From: Pecten maximus
Taxonomy: Eukaryota
Length of the DNA stretch: 64,000 nt
Reading direction: 5' to 3'
Assembly: GCF_902652985.1 (NCBI RefSeq)
Contig: NC_047033.1
Coordinates: 4,402,001-4,466,000, forward strand
In this document: positions 2,393 through 64,000 of the stretch, in pieces
Layout: every line of letters starts with the position of its first letter
Position numbering within the stretch: position 1 is the stretch's first letter
The notes under the pieces: generated by a model
Database searches by the model: none
What the model was told of the DNA's origin: nothing
The model's input: only the letters and a program-made list of their open reading frames with translations
Translations under genes and position numbers: made by a program

Positions 2393-4785
2393 AACCCGGC
2401 CCAGGAGGCTACTCTGCACTGACGGCTGTACGTGGTAACACATGGCCCAGGAGGCTACTATGCACTGACGGCTGTACGAGGTAACACCCGGCCCAGCAGG
2501 CTTCTCTGCACTGACGGCTGTACCTGGTAACACGCGGCCCAGGAGGCTACTCTGCACTGACGGCTGTACGTGGTAACACCTGGCCCAGGAGGCTACTCTG
2601 CACTGACGGCTGTACGTGGTAACACGCGGCCCAGGAGGCTACTCTGCACTGACGGCTGTACCTGGTAACACCCGACCCAGGAGGCTACTCTGCACTGACG
2701 GCTGTACGTGGTAACACCTGGCCCATGAGGCTACTCTGCACTGACAGTTGTACGTGGTAACACCTGGCCCAGGAGGCTACTCTGCACTGACGGCTGTACG
2801 TGGTAACACCCGGCCCAGGAGGCTACTCTGCACTGACGGCTGTACGTGGTAACACCTGGCCCAGGAGGCTACTCTGCACTGACGGCTGTACCTGGTAACA
2901 CCTGGCCCAGGAGGCTACTCTGCACTGACGGCTGTACGTGGGAACACCTGGCCCAGGAGGCTACTCTGCACTGACGGCTGTACGTGGTAACACCCGGCCC
3001 TGGAGGCTACTCTGCACTGACGGCTGTACCTGGTAACACCTGGCCCAGGAGGCTACTCTGCACTGACGGCTGTACGTGGTAAAACCTGGCACAGGAGGCT
3101 ACTCTGCATTGACGGCTGTACGTGGTAACACCCGGCCCTGGAGGCTACTCTGCACTGACGGCTGTACGTGGTAACACCCGGCCGAGGAGGCTTCTCTGCA
3201 CTGACGGCTGTACGTGGTAACACATGGCCCAGGAGGCTACTCTGCACTGACGGCTGTACCTGGTAACACCTGGTCCTGGAGGCTACTCTGCACTGACGGC
3301 TGAACGTGATAACAGCCTCCTGGACCGGGTGTTACCAGGTACAGCCGTCAGTGCAGACTAGCCTCCTGGTCCAGGTGTTACCACGTACAGCCGTCAGTGC
3401 AGAGTAGCCTCCTGGGCCGGGTGTTACCATGTACAGCCGTCAGTGCAGAGTAGCCTCCTGGGCCGGGTGTTACCACGTACAGCCGTCAGTGCAGAGAAGC
3501 CTCCTGGGTCAGGTGTTACCACGTACAGCCGTCAGTGCAGAGTAGCCTCCTGGACCGGGTGTTACCACGTACAGCCGTCAGTGCAGCGTGGCCTCTTGGG
3601 CCAGCTGTTACCACATTCAGCCGTCAGTGCAGAGTAGCCTCCTGGGCCAGATTTTTCCACGTACAGCCGTCAGTGCAGAGTAGCCTCCTGGACCGGGTGT
3701 TACCACGTTCAGCCGTCAGTGCAGATTAGCCTATTGGGTCAGGTGTTACCACGTACAGCCGTCAGTGCAGAGTAGCCTCCTGGGCCGGGTGTTACCACGT
3801 ACAGCCGTCAGTGCAGAGTAGCCTACTGGACCGGGTGTTACCACGTTCAGCCGTCAGTGCAGATATGCCTATTGGGTCAGGTGTTACCACATTCAGCCGT
3901 CAGTGCAGAGTAGCCTCCTGGACCGGGTGTTACCACGCACAGCCGTCAGTGGAGCGTGGCCTCCTGGGCCAGGTGTTACCACGTACAGCCGTCAGTGCAG
4001 AGTAGCCTCCTGGGCCGGGTGTTACCACGTACAGCCGTCAGTGCAGAGTAGCCTCCTGGGCCGGGTGTTACCACGTACAGCCGTCAGTGCAGAGTAGCCT
4101 CCTGGGCCAGGTGTTACCAGGTACAGCCGTCAGTGCAGAGTAGCCTCCTGGGCCATGTGTTACCACGTACAGCCGTCAGTGCAGAGTAGCCTCCTGGGCC
4201 GGGTGTTACCACGTACAGCCGTCAGTGCAGAGTAGCCTCCTGGGCCGGGTGTTACCACGTACAGCCGTCAGGGCAGAGTAGCCTCCTGGGCCGGGTGTTA
4301 CCACGTACAGCCGTCAGTGCATAGTAGCCTCCTGGGCCAGGTGTTACCACGTACAGCCGTCAGGGCAGAGTAGCCTCCTGGGCCGGGTGTTACCACGTAC
4401 AGCCGTCAGTGCAGAGTAGCCTCCTGGGCCAGGTGTTACCACGTACAGCCGTCAGGGCAGAGAAGCCTCCTGGACCGGGTGTTACCACGTACAGCCGTCA
4501 GGGCAGAGTAACCTCCTGGGCCATGTGTTACCACGTACAGCCGTCAGGGCAGAGTAGCCTCCTGGGCCATGTGTTACCACGTACAGCCGTCAGGGCAGAG
4601 TAGCCTCCTGGGCCATGTGTTACCACGTACAGCCGTCAGGGCAGAGTAGCCTTCTGGGCCAGGTGTTACCACGTATAGCCGTCAGTGCAGAGTAGCTTCC
4701 TGTGCCGGGTGTTACCACGTACAGCCTTCAGTGCAGAGTAGCTTCCTTGGTCAGGTTTTACCACGTACAGTTGTCAGTGAAGAGT
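2393..4785. repeat. 46-bp GC-rich satellite in two oppositely oriented arrays (inversion junction ~3314/3315)
   Basis: About 20 units of CCCGGCCCAGGAGGCTACTCTGCACTGACGGCTGTACGTGGTAACA, followed by about 32 units of the reverse complement. Confidence 0.95.
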
Positions 4786-31379: not shown

Positions 31380-34300
31380 ATGGAACAGCCGGAAGGACCC
31401 AGAGGGCTAAATCCGTACTTCCGACAAAACAGCATTTTCCATCTCAACTGTGAGACGTCTAACGTGAACGAAACAGGCAAGGAATCACCCCCTGTTAACA
31501 TTTTAGATACTAAACCACCGCTTGTTCCACGGAACTCCCGAGGCCGAGTACCCCATTTGGTAGAACAACATGAAAGTGATCACTTCAATTGCAGGTATAT
31601 AGACTTCTTGTTTTTTAAAGATCAACACTTAACAGATTAAATACTATCTGAAACTGTATGTATGATGAAAGGGAAAACCAATTAGTGGAAATTTTTTTGA
31701 CAAGAAGTAAATTAAAATGACAAAGATGCAACATGTAAATCTCTGATAATGAGTAACCATGATCGACTGAAAAATAAGAAGTTGCTGTTGTACATTTTTT
31801 GAACTAAACCGAAACTTGATAGAATGCGCCATTTCCTACCTCCAAAGTTTGAGCTAAAACTTTTAGGTGATTATATAATTAACTACATCCAGATGAAATT
31901 CTTTTGCACTCTGTCTGTACATTTCCTATATAAATTTCCAGCAAGCATGTTTCCATTCGTCGGTGTCGATAATACATATTTCCATACTGTTGATGATTTA
32001 TGCATGTTCGAAAAGGAGTGTTTATGTTGTCGGCGGTGTAGCATCTCAAGATAAAGGTTGTTGGATTACTCAATTGAATATGATACTAATAATAGTGCGT
32101 TACTTGACAATGTAAATATTATCACAATAGCTTCAACTTCCTTATGTCAACGAAGATAAAATATACATATATTTATCAGTACAGATGTAGCTGAAGTAGA
32201 TAAGTAACTACTTATTTCATGGTTTCTGTGTTTTTCTCTGCACCTTGTTACCATTAGTGCTTTAGTGTGTTAAGTTATCGACCTGTTCTTCTGTAAATAA
32301 TTTAATAGTAAGGCAGACTGTAACGTTATTTTTTCTTAACCTGCTAATGTTAACAATAGTTAGTTACCGGACCAAAATACTTAAGCCACCCATGGTTAGT
32401 TGTAAAGTGTTTTATAACTTGATAAATTAGGTCCCCTGGGGTTGTTACAGACATATTTAAGTTCAGAAAATGAATTATTTTTACATAGGTCCTATATGGG
32501 GTTTGTTATCAATGGGTTTGACATCAGGAAAATAATAATCACTTTACTGAAGCCCAATGGGATTGTTATAAACGGACTTGTCCTAGGTCCACTGGAGTCT
32601 GTTATAAACGAGTTTGACACAAAGGAAATAACAATAACTTTACCTAGGCCCCCGGGGTTATATTATTAACAGGGTTTGACGACAGGAAAATAATTTACTA
32701 GGTCCCCTGGAGTTTGTTATAAACGTGTTTGACATCAGAAAAATAGTTACTTTACCCAAGCCCCCTGAGATTTTTGTTTAAAACAGGTTTGGCATCAGGA
32801 AAAAATTCCTAGATCCCCGTCCCTGTGGTTTGTTATCAACCTGTTTGACTTCAAGGAAATAATTACTTAACCTAGGCACCTGGGGTTTAATATCAATGGG
32901 TTTGGTATCAGGATAATGATTACTAAGGTTCCTTTGGGTTTGTTTTAAATAGATTTGATTTCAGGAAATATTTTCTTTACCTCTTTTGGTTTGTTACAAA
33001 CGGGTTTGACATCAGGAAAATAATAACTTCAGTCTCCTGGCGTTTGTTAGAAACATGTATGTAAATAGGAAACTCAATAACATCCCATGGGGTTCCAATA
33101 TAGTTTCCTCATATATACATACATGTTTGAGAATTAATTATAACCCCAAACTGTATATATCAACTGCACCGTTATTTGGGGAAAAAAAAAAAAAAAAAAA
33201 AAATCTTTTTTACAAAGTAAAGACAATTTTAGAAATCTGTTTTTCTGTTTATCTTATTTTCTGTGGACGTTTATTTAATACAGTATGGCAGATGATGTCA
33301 CTGATGCTTTAACGTCAGACTGGATTACCAGCCCGATATATGATTTAGACAACACTGCAAAATTATCGCTTTTCAACATAAGTGACAGTTCTGAAAACGA
33401 TTCTAAAATTGGAAATGAAAGGGATATACCAAATACTCTTTACGAATTTTTCGAAGATGATCTGTTTCGGTCGGAACTTAAGAATAATACACTGGAATTT
33501 AGAAAGGACATTGAAGAAGTAGCAACAACTGAAGGTATCAATTTAACTATGTTGACGGATGAGGCAACTCACAATTCTCAACCTCATCTCAAAACTGATT
33601 CATTACCTATACCTTATCCGACTTTGATGGAAAAACAGGAAGGACCCAGAGGGCTAAATCACTACTTCCGACAAGAAAGTATTTTCCATCTCAACTGTGA
33701 GGCGCCCAACGTGAAAGAAACAGGCAATGAGGCGCCTGACGTTACCATTTCAGATATTTCACAGCCGCTTCCTCCACGGAACTCCCAAGGCAGAGTGCCT
33801 CATTTGGCAGAACAACATAAAAGTGACCATTTCAATTGCAGGTATATATATTTCTTGTTTTTTTTCCCAGAAAGATAATTAGTTAACAGATTAAAAGATG
33901 TCAGAATTAGTGTGATGAAAGGGAATATAAAAGTGTATCACTTTTCTGATGAGAAGTAAATCGATAAATGACAATTAAAGACGTTATATGTACATCTTCG
34001 ACAACCTAACACAAGCATTTGATGTTGTATAAGTTAAAACAATACCAGAAATGAATGCAATACTCTTTTACCACCCTTCAAAGTTTGAACTAAAAAGTTA
34101 ATCCTTTTATTTCGAAGTTAATGTATAATTAACTACATCCCGATGAAATTCTACTGTACTTTGTATAATCCAAGTTTTTATTCGTCAATAAGATATACTT
34201 TTATACTGCCGGTAATTTATGCATTTTGACATGCAGTGTTTTCACTGTTGGCGGTGTAGCATCTGCAGATAATGGTTACTGGATTATTCGATTGAGTATG

Positions 34301-43468: not shown

Positions 43469-46400
43469 ATGTCTTTCTCTAGACAAGCGGGAAAGCAATA
43501 TCCTGGACATGAATTACCTGTTGAATTTTCAGATATTCCACCGCCGCTCCCTCCGCGAAAACCTTTAGCCAGTCGAGTACAGCATTTGGTAAAACAATAT
43601 GAACCCGATCAATTCAAATGCAGGTATGTACGTTTTTTTGTTTTTGTTTTTATAAAAAGATGGTCAATAAATAAATAAAGGTTAATAAATAATTGATTGC
43701 CTCCCAATGGAGCTTTACCGCATCCTGTCACTATATTTGATATGTAAGCGATTACTTCTTCAGAGAAAGTCGGTGTCGCAGAGATGCATTTTCATACTGT
43801 GAGTGTTCTTCTTGTGACAAACTGTGTTCTTTGTCGGTGGTATATTATCTTCAGATGATGGTTATTGAATTACTGGATCAAACATAATACTGATGTTACT
43901 GAGATGTTTAATAATTTAAAATGTTATCACAATAGCTGCGTATCCTTAAGGTAACAGAGATTAAGTAATTATTACTAATACATGTACATGTATTAATATG
44001 GATTAACTAGATAAGTATTTTCCTTATTTTTAATCTCTGCATCTTGTTACCATATTGCGTACCTACAGTATGTAAAGTTATAAACATACTCCCCTGTAGA
44101 GACCTAAATACTTTGGTAGACCGTGGTCACTTATATCATACTTTGAACTTAACCTGCTAAAGTCTACAATGGTTAATTATCAATAAAACAACTTAGAATA
44201 CCAATGAGTAGTTGTAAACCTGCTTTATTACTTGATTACTTAGGTCCCCCGAATTGTTGTTATAAACAGGTTTGCCATCAGGAAAGTAATGACATATGCC
44301 TTCCTTAGGTTTATTTCAACGAGTCTGATATCAGGAAAGTAATGAGTAATGTCACCTGAAATTTGATCTAAACATGTTTTATAACAGAAAAACAATTGCT
44401 TAGGTCCCATTGTGTCTAGGGACCGTGGTGGCCGAGTGGTTAAGGTGTCCCGACACTTTATCACTAGCCCTCCACCTCTGGGTTCCGAGTTCGAAACCTA
44501 CGTTGGGCAGTTGCCAGGTACTGACCGTAGGCCGGTGGGTTTTTCTCCTGAAACACCTGCTTTCATCCACCTCCAAACCTGGCACGTCCTTAAATGACAC
44601 TGGCTGTTAATAGGACGTTAAACAAAATAAATCGACCAAACCCATTGTTCTGATATAAACATGTGATATTCGTTTGCAATGCGCTCTTCTCATTCTTTCT
44701 GCGGTTTTATTTCATACAGAATTGCAGAATTGTTGATGAGCTCTTCCAACGATGATGTCACTGATTCATCAACGACAGACTCATTTACCAGCCTTATATA
44801 TGATTTCGACATTGCAGAATGCTCACTTATGAATATTAGTGACAGTTCGGAAAACGATTCTGATATCGAAATAGACACGGATTTACCAAATACTCTTGAC
44901 GATTATTTTGAAAATGATATGTTTCGATCGGATCCAAAGAATTTTACACCAGAATTTCGTGAGGAAATTACAACACAGAGTAACAAGGTACCCATTATGA
45001 CGGAAGAGACAAATTTCAAATTTCAACCTCATCCTACAACAGACTCTCTACAGTTGTCAATGTCTAATTTACCTGAAATGGAAAAGCCGGAAGGCCCCAG
45101 AGGGCTAAATCACTACTTCCGACAAGACAGTATTTTCCATGTTAACCATGAGGCGCCTCACAGGAACAAAACAGACAATGAAGCGTCACATGGGAACAAA
45201 GCATGCAACTTTCAGAATAACGTAAATGAATCTGAAGACAACAATAGTAATAATTGTGAAATTGGAAACGCTGCATCTTTTGAAAGCTATGGAGGATACC
45301 AGGATACTCCAAGCGCATATGATATATATCTAGAGAAACTCAGGGAATTTGAACTAGAAAGGAACAAACTAGAACAGCTTTTGTGGAATAAAAACAACGC
45401 ACAGAATCTTGCAACTACTAGTCACAGGAAGTTGTCCTCTCAGCGATCTGTCAGTGAAAGCAACGTTTTTGAGTCGGTAAATTGTGAAGATATCCAATTA
45501 AATCAGTCTCCTGATGAAGACCGTTCAAACCAAAATGACAAATTTGAAATGGCACAATTATTAAGCACAGACGACATCCAAATCAAGACCCGATGTAATA
45601 AAGTCAAGCACGGTGCGGTTGGCATGACAAAATTTCCTAGCCTTGAACATATCACACTCAGGGCTAAAGCACCTTGGACTAATATGAAAAATAGTGAACC
45701 ATCGACAAAGCATGAAATCAATGTAAATGCACGTGCGGAACTGTCATGCCCATGCCATTTGTCGTGTAGGCGTGTTGGAAGGATAGTTGCTACACATGAT
45801 GGTCAGATATGGGTATCCTTCACTAAATGTTCTTGGGTGACCTTGTATAACCTGCGACATGTGAGCGAATTTACGGTCAATACTCATAGTGGTTATGTGG
45901 ATAGTCTTGCAGTATCAAAGACCGGATGTCTCTTCATAGCCTGTCCTCTACAGAGAAGGATTCTTAAACTGTCAAAAAACAAGAAGGTATGCTTTGATAC
46001 ACTTTTACAATAATCATTTGCTTCTTTCTTTAGAACAAGTTGATTTGTTTTATTAACATAAACTTAAATAAATTATCCAAGTGACGCAACGGAAAGTATA
46101 TTTGTGCTTTGTCAACGACCACAACTCGATCATCAGACCGTATATTGTGATGCGTAAAATCATGACGGTATTTTTGTTCCCGACCCATTTTGACCCCCTG
46201 GAAGAGAAAAAGAACATGTATAATTTGGTTTTGTTTCACTTGCTTGTTAACGAGTGACGCACGTAATTATAGTGTTATCACACCGAAATACAGTACCACA
46301 ACGGACTTCAGGCGAGCCAGTCCTAAAATTTGTTCATTATTGTTGTAAAGAAGAAATTATGACAATTGTGGTAATTTGTTTAGATTATGGCAGATCTTCC

Positions 46401-49400
46401 ACCATGTAGGAATTGGTCCTGATATTATCGATTGCAAATTACGATGTCATTAAATATATTATAGATTCTAGCGGTTACTTATCGATACTTATCCCTATTT
46501 GTTTGTGTTGCTATTTCTAAGATATATACACTCTTTTTATAACAAACTCTGTCAATGAATTCGGGAGATATCAACAGACGTTTGAAGACTACATCCCGTT
46601 TATGCTAACTGCATGCTTCTTGTGAAAGCGAAAGTGATGCTGAATTTAGCGATGCTCGCTCACTCTAGGATACTGCCGAATACTGCCAGCAGGACAATAC
46701 ATCCGGTCACAGTATACTAAAAATAGGCGAACCAATCTTTCCATTCTCAAAATACGGTGTAATAAGCATTATGGGGGATTAGCAAGTGAGATAGGGAGAC
46801 TGGCATGTATCGGGAAGGGAAACGTGAGGACGTATGCTCTAATATTTCGTAACATAGGTTTTTAGAGCGCTCATTAGTCAAAGGTCGATTATGAAATGAA
46901 ATATGGAGATAGGTAAGAAAGAAATTAATTTTATGTTTTTTGCGATCACAATTGCTCCACGCATGGAGGTCAATAACAACCGACCAATCAGATCGTGAAT
47001 AACATAAAATTATTTGCGAGATGGCGATCGAAGTACCCCAGATATTTATAGGCAAGGAAAACCAAACAGGTAAAAGGGGCGAAGTGTAGCAATATAAATA
47101 AGTTTGTTTTGGTCTAATATTCGACTTTAACATTTCTTATGGAATAAGGCATCTAATGTTCGGCTTATCGAATAGGCCTTTTAAAATATTCTCGATCGTG
47201 CACGACTTAAGAAAAATTGTCTATTAATGAAGTTACGAGACTGCCTATGAAAGTTTCACCTCTCTCTCTATTTTGTCATAATCGACGTTTGACTAATGAA
47301 CGTGCTAAACACCAATGAAAAAAAAAGTTGTATAGAAAGAAAAGAAAAAATAATATCCCTTTAGTTGCCTTTTACAAATCAAGGAAAACTGGTAACCGGT
47401 ATAATTCTTACAGCTAAGCTGCAGGTATGATGCATATATTATGATAATTAAGATTAAAACAAAAACATTACTTAATTAACTTAATTATCTTTAGTTCTAG
47501 TCATGATTTCATGCAATGTTAGTTTAAGAAAGTAATTAAAAAAGCAAAACATAATATGCTGTCGTTTTTTCCATCCTTCCGACCGTCAGAATTTACATAA
47601 TAATGAAAAACATTAATTTTCTCTTATTATCTTTCAATTTGATCATAAATTACAAAAATATTTTCATTACGATGTAATAATAAAATACTAGGATAATAAT
47701 CTCTGCTTTGAAATAGAAACATTCGTCTAAAATGATATCCTAGGTAATTATTATCTGCAATTTCGTCGAAAAACTAATAAACGTTGAAATTGAGTATCTA
47801 AGATATAGTATGCAAGGTATTTGTTTAATTCATTTATTAATTCTGTCAGTTTTTCTTTGAACTTTGGACATGCATTTTTCAGATGTATTGTAGACCCTAC
47901 AACTTATCGAAGCTACACTTTAGTTTACATGGTACAACTATTGATAGACATTATGTTTGGATTCATTATATATTAAACAATGTTTTATTGTCAGTTTATA
48001 CCATATGATAGTATCTACAATGTACAACAATCAAAAGTAGGTCGGATGTTTGTATCTATATATATACAAGAACACACCTTCTTCCTGTTAGAGTATCTGT
48101 TTCTTCATATATATGATAGAAAGGGCAAAGATTACAGCAATATTTCAACCATGACAATAATATCTGGACAATCAAATATATCGTCTGGCTTGACGTTGTT
48201 TTACGTTATATTGACACAATAATGTCATTTATAGACGATGTAAATGAAGAATGGTGTCATCATACTAGCCAAACCTGGAAACAGTCGTGTAACATCCGAT
48301 CCTGTCATATTATACTATCAACAGGACCTTATCGCCTAACTGACGAACTCTTTTATAGTACCATCGCCAGGAAATGTCACAGCTGGGGCCAGTTTTATCA
48401 GTATTCCTTGCAGAATTTAATGAAGGTTTATTCGCTTAATTTTAAGGAATGTTGATGAAAATATTGCCAGTTATTTATAGTATGACACGCAAATTCATCA
48501 AATTATACTGACAACGGGTAACATGACCTTACATCCTTTTTAATGATCTACGTCAAGCAAAGAACAGGAAAAACCAAATTTATAAATTTAGTTTAAGTAT
48601 GTTTAAATATATATTGTTATTTATTCAGTATTTAACGCAACACATGCTAAATCACAACCTGAATATAGTTGTCGCCGGATTAACCCTTCAATATCTTTTT
48701 ATTTTATTTTATTTAGATTAAGCATGTGTTACATTTGATAGTGAATAAATAATGATGTGTGTTTAGTCTAGTCTGACATGCTCAAACTAAAATGGAGATA
48801 TAAGGAATCCAACATAAAGAAGTTCCAAAATTTACTTACTGAAATAATTTCATCTTGAATTAAAACTTATTTTGCATCTTTTTCCTATTCTTCAGTTGAC
48901 GGTACTCGGCGTCTTTGACTCACTGTATCCAAGAGGACTCGCGGTATCACCAGATGACGACACTGTCTTTGTCTGCATGGCGCCACATCTTGAGGGTCGC
49001 GAGATGGGTGCTCCTTCAAAGGACAGCTGTCTGATGCGCTTCGCGGGGCAGGAGCCAAACGAATCCCGGACAATTGTCAACATGGATAGCTATTTCGGAT
49101 ATCCGATGAAAGTAGTCATTAATGTGAATGGGGTTTTATTAGTGTCAGATTTTGGTTTGAAATGTTTGTTTGTTTTGGATAAAGGCGGACATATGTTGCG
49201 GACATTTTCCTTGTTAGGGGGAGCAGGTCTGTCTCAGGTTCATGCTCTTGCGTGTAACCCTGGTAACTCATTCTTCGTCGTCCAAGGAGGAAGTGGAACG
49301 CTTTCGATCACAGAACTAGTTGATGGCGACCTAGGGATATTTGAGGAGAAGTCGACATCAAAGAAGGATGTAAAATTGATAAAACGAAACGTTGTGACAT

Positions 49401-49471
49401 CGTCAATGGTAAACGCCCGTAAGATAGCTTTAGCATCTGGAAATGCTATCATATACGTTTCCCTCGTGTAA
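43469..49471 (+). CDS. Paralog C: disordered N-terminus plus NHL-type beta-propeller (3 exons, ~665 aa)
   Basis: Exons 43469-43623 (CAG|GTATGT), 44720-45986 and 48896-49471 have phases 2, 0 and total 1998 nt in frame. Close paralog of B. Confidence 0.85.
44419..44640 (+). mobile_element. tRNA-derived V-type SINE, copy 2 (paralog C intron 1)
   Basis: Highly similar to 12879-13099. Flanked by CCCATTGT at 44406 and 44641, a probable TSD. Confidence 0.88.
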
Positions 49472-52400: not shown

Positions 52401-53753
52401 TTCTTAAGGGTTATAAACACATAGCAGATAACCTCAAAATTTTTATAAATATTTTTGAGGAGTGTTTACGAATTTTTGACATGTATTATGTTTCAGTTAT
52501 GTATAACATATATTCAGTCGACTAACTAAATTCACCATCCACCGGAGGAACTAAAGGAAACATTTTCGCTTATCGAATCAGTAGGAAGCAGCCAGCATTT
52601 ATCGCACTCAAATAATGCGTACACACATGAAAACCAAGGCAAAAATAGGAAGTTAAGGCCCTTAAAATAAACCAGACGGCGACGAGGTAGGAAACAATTT
52701 TTGATAATCCAAGTTGGGTGATTTAAACTTAGAATACTAGCATGTAAACTAAATATGAACAAAAACAACAGAAAATAAAACCATATCAACAAAACCATAA
52801 CTCTTTTTCAAAATCAATAAGACAAGGGCAAAAAAATGAACAAAAATAAGCTTGAATGGAATATGAGAATAAGAGCACATGTTTCGCAACATCCGTAATG
52901 TCCTCAAAGTGAGAACCTGGGTAAAGTAAGGGTCTTTGATGTCTTGATGTACATAGTTAAGTTCTAATATTTCAGGCGGTGTAAATAGTTTTCGCGCATC
53001 ATTTCATTTAATACCATATCGTTATCATTAATTGAAACCAAATTTGAATTGAGAGGTACTAAAAACCCGTCACTTCATCACGTCGTCACTGATGATGTCA
53101 TTTATGTAGATATAATTACTTTCTGTTTGACGGACGCGAAGAAGTAACAAGTTTTTAGCCTCTCCTAATATTCGCATGAGGGATAGGAAAAAACGTTCTA
53201 AGAATTTACATCACGATTCTTGCTCATCACCCAGTGGAAAAACGCACAATTATGAAATGAATCACTTGGTGAGGAAAATGAAAGTAACGTTGCGTAGTTA
53301 GTGGTATTATTTTCAAGCTTTAATCCTGATGACATCAAGCACAAACTATTAAATTCATTTCCTTTTTAAAAAAAATCATCATACAACACAAGATCACAAA
53401 CTGAGTGAGATATACTTTTATGCTCTTAAATTCTTTCATGACTGCATTCAGAGAAAAGAAATCTGTATGAACTTAACATCTAACATTACTGACTTTGGTG
53501 GGATTTATATTTAATATCGACATAATGACTAATTTTTAGTGCATAACGGACTTTTTTCCGTGATACACTACGCCAGCGTATATCACTTATTTCTGAGGAC
53601 AGTACAGCGACACCGTTTTTCCTCAGGATTGTGCACTGAAAGATTGTCAGTTAAGAAAGGTTTTACCAAACATTCAAGGAAGATATAGAGGGCATTCTTA
53701 TCTTCTAACATATTCCGCAACCACCTCCTCCAAGGAAGAAATTGATAAATGCT

Positions 53754-56700
53754 ATGGCGAGGCAAGTCAATACAGAAAACACTACCAGCGTGGATATGTT
53801 TTGCCGAGCGATCCAGGAAGACAATGATGATATGTTTTGCCGAGCGATCCAGGAAGATAATGATGATATGTTTTGCCGAGCGATCCAGGAAGACAATGAT
53901 GCTATGCATTGTTTGATATTCCCACACATTCCGCCGCCACCTCTACCAAGGAAAAACATCAGAATTCCTATGAAGAGACCAGTCAATCTAAATGATCAAC
54001 ACAAGTGTGGGTAAGTAATGGCTATTGTAATATAGAGCATGAAGGAAGCTGTTATACGCCCAGGCCCCGCTTGTATGAAAATACTTAAGTGTTGAGATTT
54101 CTTTATACAAGCGGGGCCAGGTAACTCTATTACAGCTTAATAACCCTTAGGATAACAAGAGGCCAAGGGCCACGTAGTTCTCTGGGCATGGTATTATGAT
54201 TCTATTTATTGTTGTCGATTTCTTGCATTTGGTAATTATAATTTGTTTGTCAGAATCAACATCTCAACTATAAACGATTTTTAATAATGTAGCTCTTACG
54301 ACTTTTTCAGTTAAAATCTCAAATTTTCCGCTCAGTCAGCAACCGAAAATCAACAATCAACCGATCATCAATCAATCTGTAACCGAATAACCGATAAAAT
54401 GTTATCATCAATAAAAAATCTATAACTGAAGAATGAGCAATAAAACGGTTATTATGATGTATCACAGTATTATAGTATTATAATCTATAATTATTTGCTT
54501 GTGAATTATGTGCACGCTATATTCTTACCTTGAACTTTCCGATGACATACAAGAGTCCTTTAACATCGTACCATTTCTGATTATTTTTATTTCTATAGCT
54601 GTCGTCGTCCGAATGATGTTAATGTTGTCAATGTTTGTACGTTATAAACTATCGTTATAATGGACATTTTGAGTATCTGCATGTTTACATTTGAGGGAAT
54701 TAAAATTATTCAAAAAACGTTCATATTTACTACTTTTATAGAAAAGAAATATTTTAGTCACAGACCGTATCAGATAGCGAGGAACAACAGTCAAAACGAC
54801 CCCTACTTAAGCTGGCTCACTGCGTACACTCCTATTGTGGTTGATAAGGGAGATATAGTAAGGCCATGTATACATGTGTGCAACGTTGAACCCAACATAC
54901 ACTTGTACACATGTGCTTCACCGTGGTTACTAAAAATAGACATTAAAACTTAAAATTTTTAAATAAAAGAATTCCAGTTGATATCGAATATTCTTATTGT
55001 TATCAACACAACAACTTTACAATACCTATTATCTGGCATCACAACATACAGCCATGAATGCACAGTTAGGTTGAAATATTTTCGACCGATGGCTATAGTT
55101 CTCGGGGCTATACTTAGCCCCTAAGAATATGTAAATATGTTAGGACCATCTTCTACTTTTACCTCATTTAATGAATATTTCATAAGCGTACATGCTTATT
55201 ATTAGATAGGAATAAAAAAATAAAAAAAATGATATATTTCTACGAATGTTCCATAAAGATTACTGTTCATCACCTGATGTTAAAACATATTATTGATGAA
55301 CTACTCAGTTAGGAATTTCAAAAACATTGTTAATCAACTTTTTATTGACGTGATATCGCCCAGATTAAATGATATCATATAGATTTATAACACATACGTT
55401 AGTACTCATCCAATAATTAAAACATACATATACTATTGCCGTAATACATTCGTAAGTTAGGGGAATTGCACATTGTTTCATTTATTATATTAACAAGTGT
55501 AAACATTGGTCTGTTGCCTGCGTACTGAAAATATAATGCATACATTTAAAGATGCTACGTCTTCGTGTAATAATGATCATTAAAAAAGGCTTTAACTCAT
55601 CTTTTCATCTTTTAATTTAAAAGTTAACTATAAATCAATTGCATTCCCAAGAAATTACACCGCTTCTATATTTATACATTAGTGACAGATTTATACGATG
55701 AGCGTGCATGTATTGTTGTGACGGGAAATATACATATATAGGATGACGGTGTAGTATAAAAATGTAATTCAATTAAATTTTGCGAATTCTTTATTTCGCG
55801 AAATTATCTCTTATTAGACGTATTCACGAATACATGATTTCGCGAACTCTGATCTAGAAATGACTTTAAATTCACGAGTGATGAGCTATTGGAGACATGG
55901 AATCAAGACTTCTATACAGGCACCGATAGCTTCATATTGGTAACTGTTTTGGTTTTTACTGTCATCAATTCTTTTTGTGATTATACCAGAACAGTCACGC
56001 GATTCAGTAAAGTGATATATACCATGGTACATGCTAGCTCATATATGTAGTAAGTAGACAAATAAAACCTACAAATGGGAACATTTCACCTGCTTTTTAT
56101 GTTTGGAGAGTGAGTGAGTTGAATTTTTCCAACTCCAGTTTTTTTGATACACGTGCTCCACTTCCGACTTTCATCTACATCTACATTCAGCAATACGGAG
56201 TTGTTATCAAAAAAGTGCACTTCTAAATATTCATGATTTTAAAGGTAATATGTTTCTAGCATTTTTTTGGTAATTATATATATGGTATATACATGTAATG
56301 ACATAATTAACGGAAATGGATGTCATCCAGATTTGTTAGTTTCGTACAAATAATCTTTAAGGATTTGAATTCGCGATTGACTCTCCTCGCTTGTTAACGC
56401 AAAAATAAATTCCACACGAAGTGGTTTGCAGCACATAATTTAAAAATGCCATTGTCAAAAATCTGGCATCCACAGTATCGGATTACACACAGCACCTCAG
56501 CAGTGACGGAAAACAGCTGTAATTTAGAATCCTTGCAAGTGCGTCAATTCGAGTGTCCTACTTACAAATGAAACAACGTTTAAAAGGCGAACATATATGG
56601 AACATTTTTGATACCATTTCACAAGAAAATGCTTATTTTTGATGACTGTTACACAAAAGATAGAATACATGGTCAATGCCTTTAACTATATAAGCGGTAT

Positions 56701-59700
56701 TTTTGACTCGGGACAGAAAAACAAAGACATGTAACTTTGTCTTTCTTTACCCTCGCCAAAATACAGCTTATATTTCAAGACACTAAACACATATTCTCTC
56801 TATATAGGATGTTAATCTCAGTATAGTGGTTTATGTATTTAAAAGTATACATTTCACTTTATGAGAGATGGCATGTGCTACATGTACTTTGATTTTAGAT
56901 AATTAATTATTTTCTTTCACATTATATAGTTTGGAAGCCCAAGACACAGATTTGATCGATCTAATCACATTTGAGGATGAGGAAGAAACTGAAGAATTGA
57001 CAGAAATCGCTCCGGAAGATTCTAGAAACTATACGGATGGTGTACCTATGAATAGGGATATAGAACATGTGAATGTCGAGTCCGAAAATGAGCAAAGTCT
57101 TGACAATTTGTTTAAAGATGACTTATTGAAATATTCGTTTGATTTTGTCGAATGTAGAAGAACGTCCCAAACTCCGGATTTGGACATATTTTCAAACGAA
57201 GATGTTGACAGGCAACATACGAGTCACTATACGGCCACAAATCCATTTATTTCAATAACTGAACCAGCAAAACAAATATTTTCAACTCCGAAACCGCTGT
57301 CAGTTCACTCTGCGGGCAGCCAACATCTGAGTGATGCTACGGCCACAAATCCATTTATTCCGATACCTCAACAAGAAAAACAATTTTATTCAACTGTTCA
57401 ACCGCGGAAAATTCACTCCGCGGGAAAGGCACATCTGAGTGACGCTACAGCAACAAATCCGTTTATTTCCATATCTGAACCAGAAGAACAAATACATTCA
57501 ACTCTTAAAACGCGGACGATAGAAAAATATAGTCCTTTTCAACAGGAGAAGATTGCATTTGGATTTGAATCATCGGTCGACAACGGCTCCGGGGAAAATT
57601 ATCAGAAAAGGCCCCGACTTAATGAGGAAGTCTCCATATCCAAATCATTATGTGAGTTGAACATCTTCTCCGGAGAAGACAATCCTGATACACCTGACAT
57701 TGTTGGTCAGGCTGGTCGCGACAAGCAACAGAATAATCCTTTTCTAAGAAAAGGGACATTTGACATCGTTACTAAACAAAACGATCATGAAAGCTGTCTA
57801 CAGAATTCTGTGGTGGATGAGACTATGTCTTCGACTGACCCCAACTCTGTGGAATGTCACGATGAGATACATACCTATGATTGTGATAACCAGATATATC
57901 ATGACACGGTTGTATTCAACAGCAATTCATGGCCAAAGGTGCATGATATGAACAAGGATCATTTTATTCAATGCACATCTGAAACAGGGCAGCTACCAGC
58001 ACTGCCAAGTCCGTGTTCTGTAGATAAATCAACTGGACTTTATCTAAATACGACTCAACATGGATCACAAGAAAAGCAGGACTGTGTGGTATATGACTAC
58101 CCAGCAAATTGTCAATCAGGAGAAATACGTCACAGGTATACGTCCTCAGATGATGAAGGCGAATACATTACTATGTCACCTATTGTAAGCAAATGCCGTA
58201 CTCATATTAACAAAAACAAGGCAGTCCAACAAAGTTCATGGAAATATGAATCAGGAAGTGACGCAAAGAGAGACCCTGACCGAACAAAAAAAGCACACCC
58301 ATTTCTTACCTCCCAGCGCTCTCTAAGTGACAGTGATATCTGCGGTCCAAACGTTTTTGGAGACAGCAAGCTAGATGCAGGGGTAGCGTACGATTGCAAC
58401 GATGGAAGGCAAATGAAAAAACATAAAAGCAAAGATAACGGTAAATTCAACGAAGGGAATTTTTTAACCAAGTTCTTCAAGCGCAACCGAAAAAACTCAC
58501 AGCTATCTACAGCAAAGCCGGGCGGTTATTTAAATCTGTTTTGTCCGTGCGGGGGTTCCTGTGACCGAATAGGGAATTTGGTGACGTCATCAGAAGGGCA
58601 GATGTGGGTTTCCTTTCTCCACTGTACTTGGGTGTCACTATACGACCACCGACTACGATTCCTGCATAAGTTTGACGCCGGTGGTATTGTGGATGATCTC
58701 GCTGTGTCGCCAGCCGGTGTCCTATATATCTCCTGTCCTCGACATAGGAAAATTCTCATGCTCACCACTAACCTAGAGGTATGTGTTGGCTTTACAGCTC
58801 AAGATATATATTCCAGAGTGTGTACGATTATATCAACGTGGTAAACAAAATAATCTAATGTTTATTTAAAGATTCAATTCAAAATTTTCTTTCACAAATT
58901 CTATCATGATATAAATTTTGCAGCTAAATTGCTGTCTTTCTCAGATAGGGCTATTTTTCTAGCACTAATATATTAACGATTTCCCAAAAACAATTGGTAA
59001 TCAACAATTCTTTCTCAATTTCTACTCATTTTAATATAATAATGCTGCAAATACAATTTCAGTGTTTCTTGAGTAAAATATCGCATTGGAATCATATTAT
59101 GAGAAATACCTACTGAAGCAAGAAAGGAAAAATGCTCGAAAAAATGAACCGGCTTTGAAAATTCTCGAAATAATCTTTGCATTGCTGATTAATCACATAT
59201 ATACTTTATTACTAATTCAAACGATAAACGATAAGATGATGGCAAAAGAATAGCAATTGCTTAATAGCAATTGCTTAACCAAGGGCAAAAAAAAATAAAA
59301 AAAATATAGATTTGCACTGAAACTGAAGTAGAATTAGACCAGGTGTACCGGTATAGTAAGCGACTTCTGCTTCTTCGACGACACACGCCATACAAATCTA
59401 GGTCACGGCGACACCCGCTATACAAATCTAGGTCACGACGACACACGCCATACAAATCTAGGTCACGGCGACAAACGCCATACAAATTTAGGTCACGACG
59501 ACACAAGCCATACAACTCTAGGTCACGACGACACCCGACATACAAATCTAGGTCACGACGACAGACGCCATACAACTCTAGGTCACGACGACACCCGCCA
59601 TACAAATCTAGGTCACGACGACACACGCCATACAAATCTAGATCACGACGACAAACGCCATACAAATCTAGGTCACGACGACACAAGCCATACAAATCCA

Positions 59701-62088
59701 GGTCACGACGACACAAGCCATACAAATCTAGGTCACGACGACACACGTCATACAAATCTAGGTCACGACGACACACGCCATACAATTTTTTATCAAATCT
59801 GGGTTAGGTTAAGTCACATCCGTGGTTGAGCGTTTGGTTAGTGAAAAGCTATGAGCAGAATATAAAATATCACGGCATGATTTTTCAGGCAAATAAGAAA
59901 AACTATATCCTCTTGTTTAAAAACATTCATTGAATTATTTTTTCGTTATAAAAGAAGTAACTTTGCCATAGATAGGTATATTATATATCATACAAATATA
60001 TCATGGGTTTCTGGGCAAAAGTCCAGAATATTTGACACGGGGTACTTGTAATCGACCGCTGTTCTATTGCTCGAGGCAGAAGCCTGAGTGCAATAGAACA
60101 TCGGTCGATTACCAGTACCGAGGGTCAAATATTCTGGACTTTTGCATAGACGCCCATGATATACTTGTTTTATTACATAATCACTAAAACACACTTAGAA
60201 TCACTGAAATTTCAACATCCCTATAGGCCTAGAAGTAGCCTGGCAGTATTGACATCTTAGTGACTAAGACGCTTGAAATGGTATTACAATTTCGAAATAG
60301 TCATTTTAGCCGTTTAATAGTATACATTTATTGTATGGGTCTGAGGGAAATACCACTTTTATTGTCCCCCGAGGCATGAACTATTTTCCGAGGTGAAGCA
60401 AATACAACTGCACTGCACTGCACTGCACTGCACTGGAGCTTAATGTTGAGTGCGCCCAAATGAATATGTTACCATTATGTTTTCTATTTATACATTAAAC
60501 CTTGTGATGTGATACACATCTATACCATGGCTCTTAAAACAATCATTCAATGTAAATCTTATGAGTAATTCTATTTCCGTGAATTCATTTCAGCCATACA
60601 CGAGGACGTATTGTAAAAATCCACAGTTCTCGGTTCAGTTTGTCAGCCCTGTCATCTTCACGCTATGTTAACTCAAAACGTTTAATTAAGAACCATACTC
60701 AAATAACATTACAATTATAATTAAAGCTAAACTGTTCCTCTTATATATTATAGTTTAATGTAGGGCAGAATTTGAATATTTTTTTTGCAAATATCTAATT
60801 ACCAAAATTAAATATTGATATTATAATTAACGTGAGGAATGACTCTACTAAATCATAACTCAATGATAGTCAGACTAGAACAAGTCTTAAACAAAGCTTT
60901 AGTTACTCATCCATAAATAGACTAAATTATGAAATATTTTAAAATAATATTATCTATATCATCTAAAGTAAATATTACTTTACTAATTCAACTATTTGAT
61001 AGGAAATTTATATGAAGTGTGTTCGTGGCTTATTAAAAGAAACATTATAATAAAACAAACTGCAATAATACAGGATACACATTTGCTTAATTGTATGTTA
61101 ATATCGGTTAAAATTCTACACTTTTATGATATCAAATTCGTACTATAAATTAAGATTAAGAGAAGCTGCAATTTTTAAGCATTTTTGTGATTACATTGTT
61201 TCCCTTGCAGCGTTTAAACCTGCCTCGAAGGATCAATTTGTATAGAAAGCTCTTTTGTAAACTCTTTCATTGTAGTGTACTCAAAATTTTAGCGTGTAAC
61301 ATAACTGTAAGATATTAGCGAAATGATGAGTTATGGTTACGGCGAAAAGCGTTAAAATGAAATAACCACTAAAATATGTATGCCTACATGATGTTCATCA
61401 CACTAAGTTAATATTAATGGTTATGCTAATCCAAGTATACGCCTTATTTCTTTATTTCAGTGTATACAGTAAATGCAAAACTAGGGATAAACAATAATAT
61501 AATTATACTTGTTTACTGTAGTTGGGGACAATGTGTCATTTCAACAAGCTGCATCCACGAGGACTTGCAATTTCCCCGATAGATGGATCTGTGGTTGCCT
61601 GTTTGACGTCAGAAGAGCTTGGACACTTGATGACTGGCTCTTCAAATAACTCTCTGATGAAATTTGCAGGAAAAAGAAAGAACGAAGAAGGAAAAGTTTT
61701 GAACAAAGGCGATTTTCTTGGTTATCCCATGAGGCTTGCCATTAACATAAATGGATATATCTTAGTCTCGGATTTCGGTTTGAGGTGTATGTTTGTTTTG
61801 AACCAAGGAGGGCTCATGCTAAAGAAGTTGACCATATTAGGAGAACGACAGCTATGCCAAGTGCACAGCATTACACATGGTCATGGTGAAACCTTTTACG
61901 TTGTACACGGCGGGCGTGGTAGGTTAATCATCACACGACTGCAGGAACACCGGGGTTGCGTAACACAGGAGACTTCACGACGTTTGGACCCAGACATTTA
62001 CTGTAAAGTTCGAGCATCTACTGTTACTCAGAGAGGTCAGCTAGTAGTAACCTCTGGATCGGTAGTTAAATACATCTCTCCTGATTAA
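53754..62088 (+). CDS. Paralog D: NPF-repeat disordered N-terminus plus NHL-type beta-propeller (3 exons, ~890 aa)
   Basis: Exons 53754-54010 (TGG|GTAAGT), 56930-58778 and 61522-62088 have phases 2, 0 and total 2673 nt in frame. Blades: GQMWVSF, VDDLAVSPAGVLYISC, HPRGLAISP, LGYPMRLAININGYILVSDFGLRCMFVLNQGG. Confidence 0.85.
54063..54118. mobile_element. Tiny palindromic MITE (GGCCCCGCTTGTAT...ATACAAGCGGGGCC)
   Basis: Perfect 14-bp terminal inverted repeats. Confidence 0.6.
59330..59820. repeat. 30-bp minisatellite (~13 units) expanded inside a dispersed repeat, in paralog D intron 2
   Basis: TACAAATCTAGGTCACGACGACACACGCCA units. The flanks match the repeats at 26930, 30425 and 42340. Confidence 0.9.
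59997..60163. repeat. Long inverted repeat (74-bp arms, 19-nt spacer); probable palindromic non-autonomous transposon
   Basis: 59997-60070 pairs with 60090-60163 with about 9-10 mismatches. The spacer is tcgaggcagaagcctgagt. Confidence 0.8.
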
Positions 62089-63601: not shown

Positions 63602-64000
63602 TTAATGCGGACCAAAAAAGAAGTGGTTATTACCACTAGATGGTGACGAATCACTTTGCGCCATGTCCATTTCACCGATCAAATGGCCAACGAACGTACC
63701 GTAAACCTGATTCTTCTGACCAAATAGGGTGAAACTCTGCGCTTGTCTGACCTGGACGAAAACTCTTTCCCCTTTCCCGGCGAAGACAATGACGGAGTTC
63801 CCTGCCGAGGAATGACTATTGAAGCCTGCCAGAGACACCAATAGTTCGGTATTTTTCACCAGTTCCAGCCACATTGCATTATCGGTGTTCGCATCATAAG
63901 CATGGAATTCGAATTTGTAGATCCCTGACTTGGGAGCGGTAAATACTCCTGTGTTCTGGTCGTATCCACCACCAAGATTAGTGAAAATTTTGTCATATCT
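63602..64000 (-). CDS. C1q-domain-containing protein, 3' part (runs off the window)
   Basis: Open frame from the window edge: YDKIFTNLGGGYDQNTGVFTAPKSGIYKFEFH...WLELVKN...SSAGNSVIV...GERVFVQV...YGTFVGHLI, which are canonical globular C1q motifs. Confidence 0.92.
   Translation of the reverse strand, partial: RYDKIFTNLGGGYDQNTGVFTAPKSGIYKFEFHAYDANTDNAMWLELVKNTELLVSLAGFNSHSSAGNSVIVFAGKGERVFVQVRQAQSFTLFGQKNQVYGTFVGHLIGEMDMAQSDSSPSSGNNHFFFGPH

What the first reader, a model, noticed from the sequence alone, without database searches (positions are those of the whole stretch)
56930..57745. Paralog D carries an endocytic-adaptor-like signature: 36-aa NPF repeats and a clathrin-box-like motif
Seen: a 108-bp coding repeat occurs three times (57231-57510), each copy starting TATNPFI. 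There is a fourth NNPF near 57735, and DLIDLITFEDEEE sits at the start of exon 2. Established: NPF binds EH domains (Eps15, intersectin, EHD), LITFE fits the clathrin-box consensus L-hydrophobic-x-hydrophobic-[DE], and PPPPLPRK in exon 1 is an SH3-ligand type motif. Inference: D may be an epsin/stonin-like trafficking adaptor using an NHL propeller as its cargo module, a combination I do not recognise. The NPF repeats are absent from A-C.
Basis: partly seen in the sequence, partly recalled or inferred. Interest (0 to 1): 0.7.

Follow-up and report, generated by a model that had tools for sequence, protein, structure and literature searches.

The report
Scallop NPF-rich NHL trafficking scaffold
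A scallop gene joins a six-bladed NHL propeller to a long arm, predicted to be floppy, whose repeated NPF motifs are kept in three scallop genera, so it likely tethers that propeller to the cell's membrane-uptake machinery, a pairing of parts not found in the papers searched.

Summary
Gene D is Pecten maximus LOC117317859 (890 aa, three exons, exon 2-3 splice seen in transcript contigs): about 620 residues predicted disordered, then an NHL propeller with no RING, B-box or filamin domain. It has four NPF motifs, three from a 108-bp repeat. NPF is the only tripeptide present at least twice in all three arms, which are only 28-36% identical. No close paralogue has NPF in its arm. Corrections: the proline motif is family-wide; LITFE fits only the relaxed clathrin box, which arises by chance in about 20% of shuffles; canonical AP-2 motifs are missing; the fourth NPF is a variant of an older family motif. 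Best reading: an EH-domain-binding scaffold, more likely for Eps15/intersectin-type than EHD-type domains, built on a RING-less TRIM-related propeller. Binding, localisation and the propeller's ligand are untested. It works like an epsin/stonin arm but is neither protein.

The parts
53754..54010 (+). Gene D coding exon 1 (aa 1-86), with a 36-bp triple repeat (12-aa unit) and the proline motif
   Evidence: model equals XP_033728707.1; GTAAGT donor at 54011; exon 1-2 junction not seen in the 8 runs laid
53931..53954 (+). PPPPLPRK, SH3-ligand-type motif (PxxPxR / PxxxPR); family-wide, not D-specific
   Evidence: LIFPHIPPPP and PRK identical in Argopecten; PPPLPPRK in C and Mizuhopecten P0035
56930..58778 (+). 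Gene D exon 2: most of the arm (predicted disordered) and the first propeller blades
   Evidence: transcript contigs cover parts of it
56949..56987 (+). DLIDLITFEDEEE: relaxed clathrin box (LITFE, 56961-56975) with acidic tail
   Evidence: IDLI and FEDEE identical in Argopecten; strict consensus not met
57108..57128 (+). LFKDDLL: family-wide F-x-x-D-[LMIF]-[FL] motif containing DLL (DLF in Argopecten D and in B)
   Evidence: present in 9 of the 13 proteins/gene models scanned, including all three D orthologues that have this region; DLL/DLF bind clathrin weakly in AP180 (PMC5694535, PMC11246429)
57231..57516 (+). 108-bp (36-aa) coding repeat, 2.7 copies, each starting TATNPFI; NPF at 57240, 57348, 57456
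   Evidence: no other strong copy in the genome
57531..57539 (+). SPF: site that is NPF in Argopecten (NNPFRF) and Mizuhopecten (SNPFQK); likely a lost NPF in Pecten
   Evidence: alignment
57735..57764 (+). Fourth NPF (NPFLRKGTF), in register with the family motif N-[HP]-Y-F-R-Q-[DNE]-S-I-F of A, B, C
   Evidence: NPFLR identical in Argopecten
58092..58328 (+). Distal arm: YDYP (58092), YITM (58164), QRSLS (58314); possible phospho-sites
   Evidence: QRS[LV]S in 9 of 13 family members scanned but not in Argopecten D; YxxM and YDxP each in 2 of 3 D orthologues, near chance
58530..58778 (+). NHL propeller, first part (aa about 620-702), opening with CPC-x-x-x-C
61522..62088 (+). Gene D exon 3: rest of the propeller (aa 703-890) and stop
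   Evidence: GT..AG joint 58778 to 61522 in contigs of 4 of 4 runs laid

Best explanation
Gene D encodes a predicted-disordered arm with four NPF motifs joined to a C-terminal NHL propeller, and it likely acts as a scaffold that docks on EH-domain proteins of the endocytic coat, with the propeller likely holding a still unknown partner. Shown: the gene model, the exon 2-3 splice, the motifs, their retention in three scallop genera, the fold class of the propeller, the lack of RING/B-box. Inferred steps: (1) the family's arm already had a proline motif and weak coat-type hydrophobic-acidic motifs; (2) the D lineage gained NPFs and amplified them separately in Pecten (36-aa unit) and Argopecten (21-aa unit), which would raise avidity, since single NPF-EH contacts are weak (KD above 100 uM, PMC6524969); (3) non-acidic flanks point to N-terminal EH domains (Eps15/intersectin type) rather than EHD; (4) LITFE and DLL would touch the clathrin terminal domain and PPPPLPRK an SH3 protein; (5) the propeller would bind a protein or RNA and so be carried to coated pits or early endosomes. 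Step 5 has no direct support.
For: Orthologues: Argopecten 6 NPF, Mizuhopecten 4 NPF, Pecten 4, in arms 28-36% identical while propellers are 57-68% identical. With repeats collapsed NPF (2, 4, 4) is the only tripeptide present at least twice in all three arms; any tripeptide does that in 44 of 3000 shuffles and reaches 2/4/4 in 0 of 3000 (shuffles ignore shared descent). Of 12 identical runs of 3 or more residues between the Pecten and Argopecten arms, 8 are parts of the named motifs, 4 of them NPF blocks. NPF spacing differs (36,36,93; 23,35,21,21,84; 12,47,79), with one site lost in Pecten and one unaligned site in Mizuhopecten: turnover with the number kept. Inside the Pecten repeat TATNPFI has 0 amino-acid changes and 3 silent ones between copy 3 and the others, while the spacer has pN 0.24-0.29 and pS 0.21-0.27. 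Of 34 other relatives fetched (19904 residues) 3 have one NPF and none has two. Residues 1-619 have pLDDT under 50. The genome has EH domains: 7 matches over the Pfam cut-off, one a complete EHD-type domain. A TRIM-NHL precedent in trafficking: TRIM3 in the CART recycling complex (PMC3782429 passages).
Against: No binding or localisation data. Several NPFs do not guarantee EH binding: worm FBXB-75 and vps-11 were expressed but not recovered by EH baits (PMC3570524 passages). No DPF, DPW or FxDxF in any D protein. LITFE and LIIFE fail the strict clathrin box, the relaxed one is met by chance in about 20% of shuffles, and the Mizuhopecten model lacks that region, so it rests on 2 species. NPF4 is a variant of an older motif of unknown partner and is not kept at that place in Mizuhopecten. 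The within-repeat signal is modest when tested fairly: NPF columns invariant p = 0.08, a run of 7 anywhere p = 0.014, and the 7-codon motif was chosen after looking. Only three orthologues with an arm were found. The closest solved propellers include RNA binders (Brat, TRIM71). Low pLDDT from a 5-sequence alignment is weak proof of disorder.
Confidence: 0.58

Rival explanations
1. EHD/recycling-endosome scaffold: the NPFs bind the C-terminal EH domain of the scallop EHD protein and D acts at recycling tubules, much as TRIM3 does in CART.
For: An EHD-type EH domain is in the genome. 6 of 14 NPFs have one acidic residue at +1..+3. Epsins, listed as EHD1 and EHD2 partners in pull-downs, show that EHDs take such ligands (PMC13282721 Table 2). 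AP-2 motifs are missing.
Against: EHDs prefer NPF followed by acidic clusters (PMC13282721 section 8.2; PMC3570524); 0 of 4 Pecten NPFs have an acidic residue at +1..+3 and none of 14 has two.
Confidence: 0.14
2. Signalling scaffold: the arm mainly gathers SH3, SH2 and 14-3-3 partners (proline motif, YxxM, YDxP, RSxS), and the NPF-like motifs bind something other than EH domains, perhaps the partner of the family's Y-F-R-Q-D-S-I-F motif.
For: The proline, FxxD[LM]F, YFRQDSIF and QRS[LV]S motifs are older and wider than NPF, two reaching an oyster protein. NPF4 is in register with YFRQDSIF and a B-like block reads NPYFRQNSIF. The IDLI plus acidic tail also resembles a SUMO-interacting motif (recalled consensus, not tested).
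Against: NPF1-3 and the Mizuhopecten NPFs share only the tripeptide with each other, not the longer motif; what is kept in B/C-type proteins is L-[IM]-[ST]-F, not IDL; YxxM and YDxP are each in 2 of 3 orthologues and near chance.
Confidence: 0.15
3. RNA regulator of the Brat/TRIM71 kind whose arm drives granule or partner binding; NPF is secondary.
For: Fold hits include Brat, TRIM71 and Mei-P26 NHL domains; the D propellers are net basic (K+R 27-32 against D+E 17-21).
Against: Identity to those is about 14-15% and TRIM2 scores as well or better; the RNA-binding residues were not tested; it does not explain why NPF was kept and amplified only in D.
Confidence: 0.07
4. Neutral sequence: the repeat is a chance minisatellite in a tolerant disordered region and the motifs do nothing.
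For: This window has 40 tandem-repeat rows, exon 1 of D has another repeat, and the spacer of the 108-bp unit evolves at pN about equal to pS.
Against: NPF enrichment in three genera, different repeat units that each carry NPF, four NPFs without any repeat in Mizuhopecten, and motif blocks standing out as the identical runs.
Confidence: 0.06

Closest known systems
Clathrin-associated sorting proteins with NPF arms (epsin, stonin, AP180/CALM; domain content recalled, AP180 from PMC11246429)
   Same: One folded module at one end and a long unfolded arm with several NPFs, a clathrin-box-like motif and DLL/DLF.
   Different: The folded module is an NHL propeller, not ENTH, ANTH or mu-homology; no DPF/DPW/FxDxF; one DLL, not a dozen; no sequence homology found; seen only in scallops.
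TRIM-NHL proteins (TRIM2, TRIM3/BERP, TRIM71, Brat, Thin) and molluscan RING/B-box-NHL proteins
   Same: C-terminal six-bladed NHL propeller (Foldseek E 5e-13 to TRIM2; profile E 1e-5); TRIM3 works in endosomal recycling (PMC3782429).
   Different: No RING, B-box or filamin domain, so no predicted ligase; the N-terminus is a motif arm; the propellers form a separate branch from the TRIMs (100/99).
EHD ligands (MICAL-L1, rabenosyn-5, Rab11-FIP2)
   Same: Several NPFs.
   Different: Those have acidic clusters after NPF (PMC13282721); D does not.
Paralogues A, B, C and relatives (scallop P0005, P0008, P0035; oyster P0016)
   Same: Same propeller family, proline motif, FxxD[LM]F, YFRQDSIF-type and QRS[LV]S motifs; neighbouring genes in three scallop genomes by accession order and contig length.
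   Different: No NPF in the arm; all uncharacterised.

Membership tests
EH-network ligand / clathrin-associated sorting protein | Several NPF motifs in an unfolded region | tested here: met
   4 NPF at aa 190-355; aa 1-619 pLDDT under 50 (shallow alignment)
EH-network ligand / clathrin-associated sorting protein | NPF kept in orthologues above background | tested here: met
   4, 6, 4 in three genera; only tripeptide at least twice in all three arms
EH-network ligand / clathrin-associated sorting protein | NPF-dependent binding to an EH domain | not testable with these tools
   needs a binding assay
EH-network ligand / clathrin-associated sorting protein | Clathrin box | tested here: inconclusive
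   relaxed L-phi-x-phi-[DE] met in 2 of 2 orthologues that have the region; strict form met in 0 of 3; relaxed form arises in about 20% of shuffles
EH-network ligand / clathrin-associated sorting protein | AP-2 appendage motifs (DPF, DPW, FxDxF) | tested here: not met
   0 in P0001, P0002, P0004
EH-network ligand / clathrin-associated sorting protein | Localisation to coated pits or endosomes | not testable with these tools
   needs imaging
Epsin | N-terminal ENTH domain and UIMs | tested here: not met
   no such Pfam hit at E up to 1; no folded N-terminal domain predicted
Stonin | C-terminal mu-homology domain | tested here: not met
   C-terminus is an NHL propeller
TRIM-NHL | RING and/or B-box with coiled coil | tested here: not met
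   no RING/B-box hit in P0001-P0003, while the same scan finds them in TRIM relatives
TRIM-NHL | Six-bladed NHL propeller | tested here: met
   model aa 620-890 mostly pLDDT 60-91; top Foldseek hits TRIM2, Brat, Thin; Atlas features 0.96 to NHL clusters, TM 0.80-0.83; Pfam NHL itself is under or at cut-off
RNA-binding NHL (Brat/TRIM71) | Basic/aromatic RNA-binding top face | not tested
   only net charge counted
EHD-selective ligand | Acidic cluster after NPF | tested here: not met
   0 of 4 in Pecten; 6 of 14 overall have one acidic residue at +1..+3, none two

The most novel reading that the evidence does not exclude
A TRIM-related NHL propeller that lost its ligase half was rebuilt in scallops into a true clathrin-coat adaptor: NPF arrays, amplified twice independently, recruit it to Eps15/intersectin and the NHL propeller selects cargo (a membrane protein tail or an RNA), making NHL a new cargo module of endocytic adaptors, while the NPF-less paralogues B and C send the same module elsewhere.
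Probability: 0.22. Interest if true: 0.72.

Novelty: new variant of a known kind. Interest (0 to 1): 0.46.

Why it matters
If right, it adds the NHL propeller to the folded modules that ride on endocytic motif arms, and gives a compact natural case of how such an adaptor arises: one member of a tandem cluster gains NPFs, two lineages amplify them with different repeat units, and sibling genes without NPF are built-in controls. The reach is limited: the D type was found only in scallops, nothing has been measured, and each part is a known part.

Tried and rejected
Complex prediction of a scallop EHD-type EH domain with one 36-aa repeat: no verdict (0.23, mark 0.34, controls not folded); it is no evidence either way, and the Eps15/intersectin-type EH domains could not be tried because only exon fragments were at hand. 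Exon 1-2 junction: not seen in 8 runs laid (low cover, contigs only), so it rests on the RefSeq model, splice signals, phase and the Argopecten alignment. More D orthologues: three word-indexed searches (length-limited, the last scored only the 7989 best candidates and missed even P0002) and one full HMMER scan of 50% clusters (32 hits) gave none with an arm beyond Pecten, Argopecten and Mizuhopecten; one unnamed 218-aa fragment (P0009) falls in the D branch but has no arm. Atlas search with aa 50-370: no usable hit. Pfam hits zf-SCNM1, INO80F, DUF3659 are under cut-off and were dismissed. Repeat as mobile or satellite DNA: rejected, 1 strong match (itself) of 11 listed, the next at E 0.007 with stops. 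first failed on a wrong start coordinate and on bad cut sites; corrected in 61 and 64. Tree used only the exon-3 part of 25 rows; left out P0003, P0006, P0007 (near copies/isoforms), P0010, P0027 (lack that part), P0028-P0033 (not used; anchor failed for P0031, P0032). Papers: no paper found with the six accessions, with 'NHL domain'+endocytosis+NPF+clathrin, or scallop+'NHL repeat'+'tripartite motif'; the one hit and the 12 were seen only as listings and look unrelated; (a recalled motif) found none. Three primary papers were not held. Most subscription papers and all supplements were not searched. Earlier-findings look-ups were empty.

Full report
What is there. The window is from the scallop Pecten maximus: exon 2 of gene D is 100% identical to part of XP_033728707.1, LOC117317859, 890 aa, 'uncharacterized'. 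Exons 53754-54010, 56930-58778 and 61522-62088 translate exactly to it. The exon 2-3 splice (GT..AG) is bridged by contigs in 4 of 4 runs laid, and contigs cover NPF repeats in 3 of those 4 (the runs' RNA status is a guess, but the spliced joint shows RNA). The exon 1-2 joint was not seen in 8 runs laid. D is the last of four related genes; own-genome searches with the two propeller halves gave 4 and 5 matches, four in this cluster each time and one weak extra (lower bounds).

The observation. The third copy is partial. A, B and C have no NPF in their arms.

Anatomy. AlphaFold gives pLDDT under 50 for aa 1-619 and an all-beta propeller for aa 620-890 (5 sequences only). Foldseek ranks TRIM2, Brat and Thin NHL domains first (E 5e-13 to 1e-12, about 15% identity); the profile search finds TRIM2, TRIM3 and TRIM71 (E 1e-5 to 6e-4); the Atlas agrees. 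Pfam finds no RING, B-box, filamin, ENTH or mu domain. A full HMMER scan gave 32 hits: the scallop family first, then an oyster protein and RING/B-box-NHL proteins. In a tree of the exon-3 part (25 rows) D and B/C types group at 100/99, the three D orthologues plus one unnamed fragment at 91/94 (below the tool's starred level), and all 13 rows without a TRIM label on that side are split from the TRIMs at 100/99; the root is a midpoint, so descent from a TRIM is inferred, not shown.

The conservation test. The Argopecten orthologue (880 aa) has 6 NPFs, partly in its own 21-aa repeat, and keeps LIFPHIPPPP, PRK, IDLI, FEDEE, NPFISI, ATNPFI twice and NPFLR: 8 of the 12 identical runs in a 36%-identical arm. 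Mizuhopecten P0004 (658 aa, model starts after the clathrin-box region) has 4 NPFs with no repeat. NPF is the only tripeptide found at least twice in all three arms, also after collapsing repeats (2, 4, 4); any tripeptide does so in 44 of 3000 shuffles and none reaches 2/4/4. These shuffles do not model shared descent, but low arm identity (28-36%), different spacings, and a site that is NPF in two genera and SPF in Pecten argue for selection on the motif. Within the Pecten repeat the motif codons show only silent change while the spacer drifts (pN 0.24-0.29, pS 0.21-0.27); tested fairly this is modest (p 0.08 for the three NPF columns, 0.014 for a run of seven anywhere). The one listed transcript variant inside an NPF codon (57461) is silent. 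Of 34 other relatives 3 have one NPF and none two.

What is and is not D's own. The proline motif is in C and a Mizuhopecten B/C-type gene, and a similar one in oyster P0016. [DN]-L-[IM]-[STI]-F is in two D and two B/C-type proteins. F-x-x-D-[LMIF]-[FL] and QRS[LV]S are in most B/C/D members. Y-F-R-Q-D-S-I-F-type motifs are in A, B, C and the oyster protein, and D's fourth NPF lies in register with it; a B-like block reads NPYFRQNSIF. So the family arm is an older motif platform and the NPF array is D's addition; NPF4 may have come from the older motif (inference).

What the motifs mean. From passages read: most EH domains bind NPF, but two worm proteins with several NPFs were not recovered by EH baits (PMC3570524); EHD-type domains prefer acidic flanks (PMC13282721); single NPF-EH contacts are weaker than 100 uM (PMC6524969); the clathrin box is L-phi-x-phi-[DE], strictly L(L,I)(D,E,N)(L,F)(D,E), and DLL/DLF bind clathrin weakly (PMC5694535, PMC11246429); TRIM3 binds myosin V and acts in the CART recycling complex (PMC3782429). 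D's NPFs are not acidic (0 of 4; 6 of 14 across orthologues have one acidic residue). LITFE meets only the relaxed box, which 20% of shuffles also meet. DPF, DPW and FxDxF are absent. The scallop genome has 7 EH matches over cut-off, one a whole EHD-type domain; naming the others as Eps15, intersectin, Reps or synergin would be inference.

Mechanism. Most likely (0.58) D is an EH-binding scaffold of the endocytic coat: clustered NPFs would give avid binding to tandem N-terminal EH domains, LITFE and DLL would add weak clathrin contacts, the proline motif would bind an SH3 protein, and the propeller would bring along an unknown ligand. Sequence, conservation and fold are shown; every binding step is inferred. 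Rivals: EHD/recycling scaffold (0.14), signalling scaffold with non-EH partners (0.15), RNA regulator (0.07), neutral repeat (0.06).

Novelty. It works like an epsin or stonin arm but fails their defining domains, and it has the TRIM-NHL propeller without the tripartite motif. No paper was found for the accessions or for NHL with NPF and clathrin (open-access library only, supplements not searched). I rate it a new variant of a known kind, interest 0.46: real, conserved and testable, but limited to scallops and unmeasured.

Noticed in passing
window 31380-31594 (+): Extra short copy of B's first coding block (NPYFRQNSIF ... PPLVPRNS ... ending at a GT like the 33279-33841 copy); B's 5' part joins exon-2-like and exon-1-like sequence, a sign of partial tandem duplication.
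   Followed up: partly
window 53691-53753 (+): In frame just upstream of D's annotated start lies a second, decayed copy of the LIFPHIPPPPLPRK block with a stop in it; exon 1 also holds a 36-bp triple repeat at 53793-53906 that Argopecten lacks.
   Followed up: no
window 23958, 33663, 35310, 45114; oyster P0016 aa 5-12: Family motif Y-F-R-Q-[DNE]-S-[IM]-F kept from scallops to an oyster in an otherwise unalignable arm; partner unknown.
   Followed up: partly
window 58542-58562 and the same place in B and C: CPC-x(2,3)-C at the start of the propeller in B/C/D types, with further conserved cysteines; possibly a metal site.
   Followed up: no
window 43469-49471 (+): Paralogue C is LOC117317660 (two isoforms), exon 1 at 43469 with PPPLPPRK; B and C propellers are very close (branch lengths 0.04-0.08), a recent duplication. 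A is LOC117317990.
   Followed up: partly
window 63602-64000 (-): C1q domain (PF00386, E 4e-17) of a gene on the opposite strand running off the window end.
   Followed up: no
P0003 and P0004 (Mizuhopecten): Two 96%-identical D-type models on different scaffolds, one truncated; could be haplotypes or a recent duplication.
   Followed up: no
window 2394-4785: Two adjacent 46-bp satellite arrays in opposite orientation meeting at 3314 (consensus units are reverse complements).
   Followed up: no
window 59376-59785: 30-bp satellite in D's second intron, heavily covered by contigs from other loci in all four runs laid.
   Followed up: no
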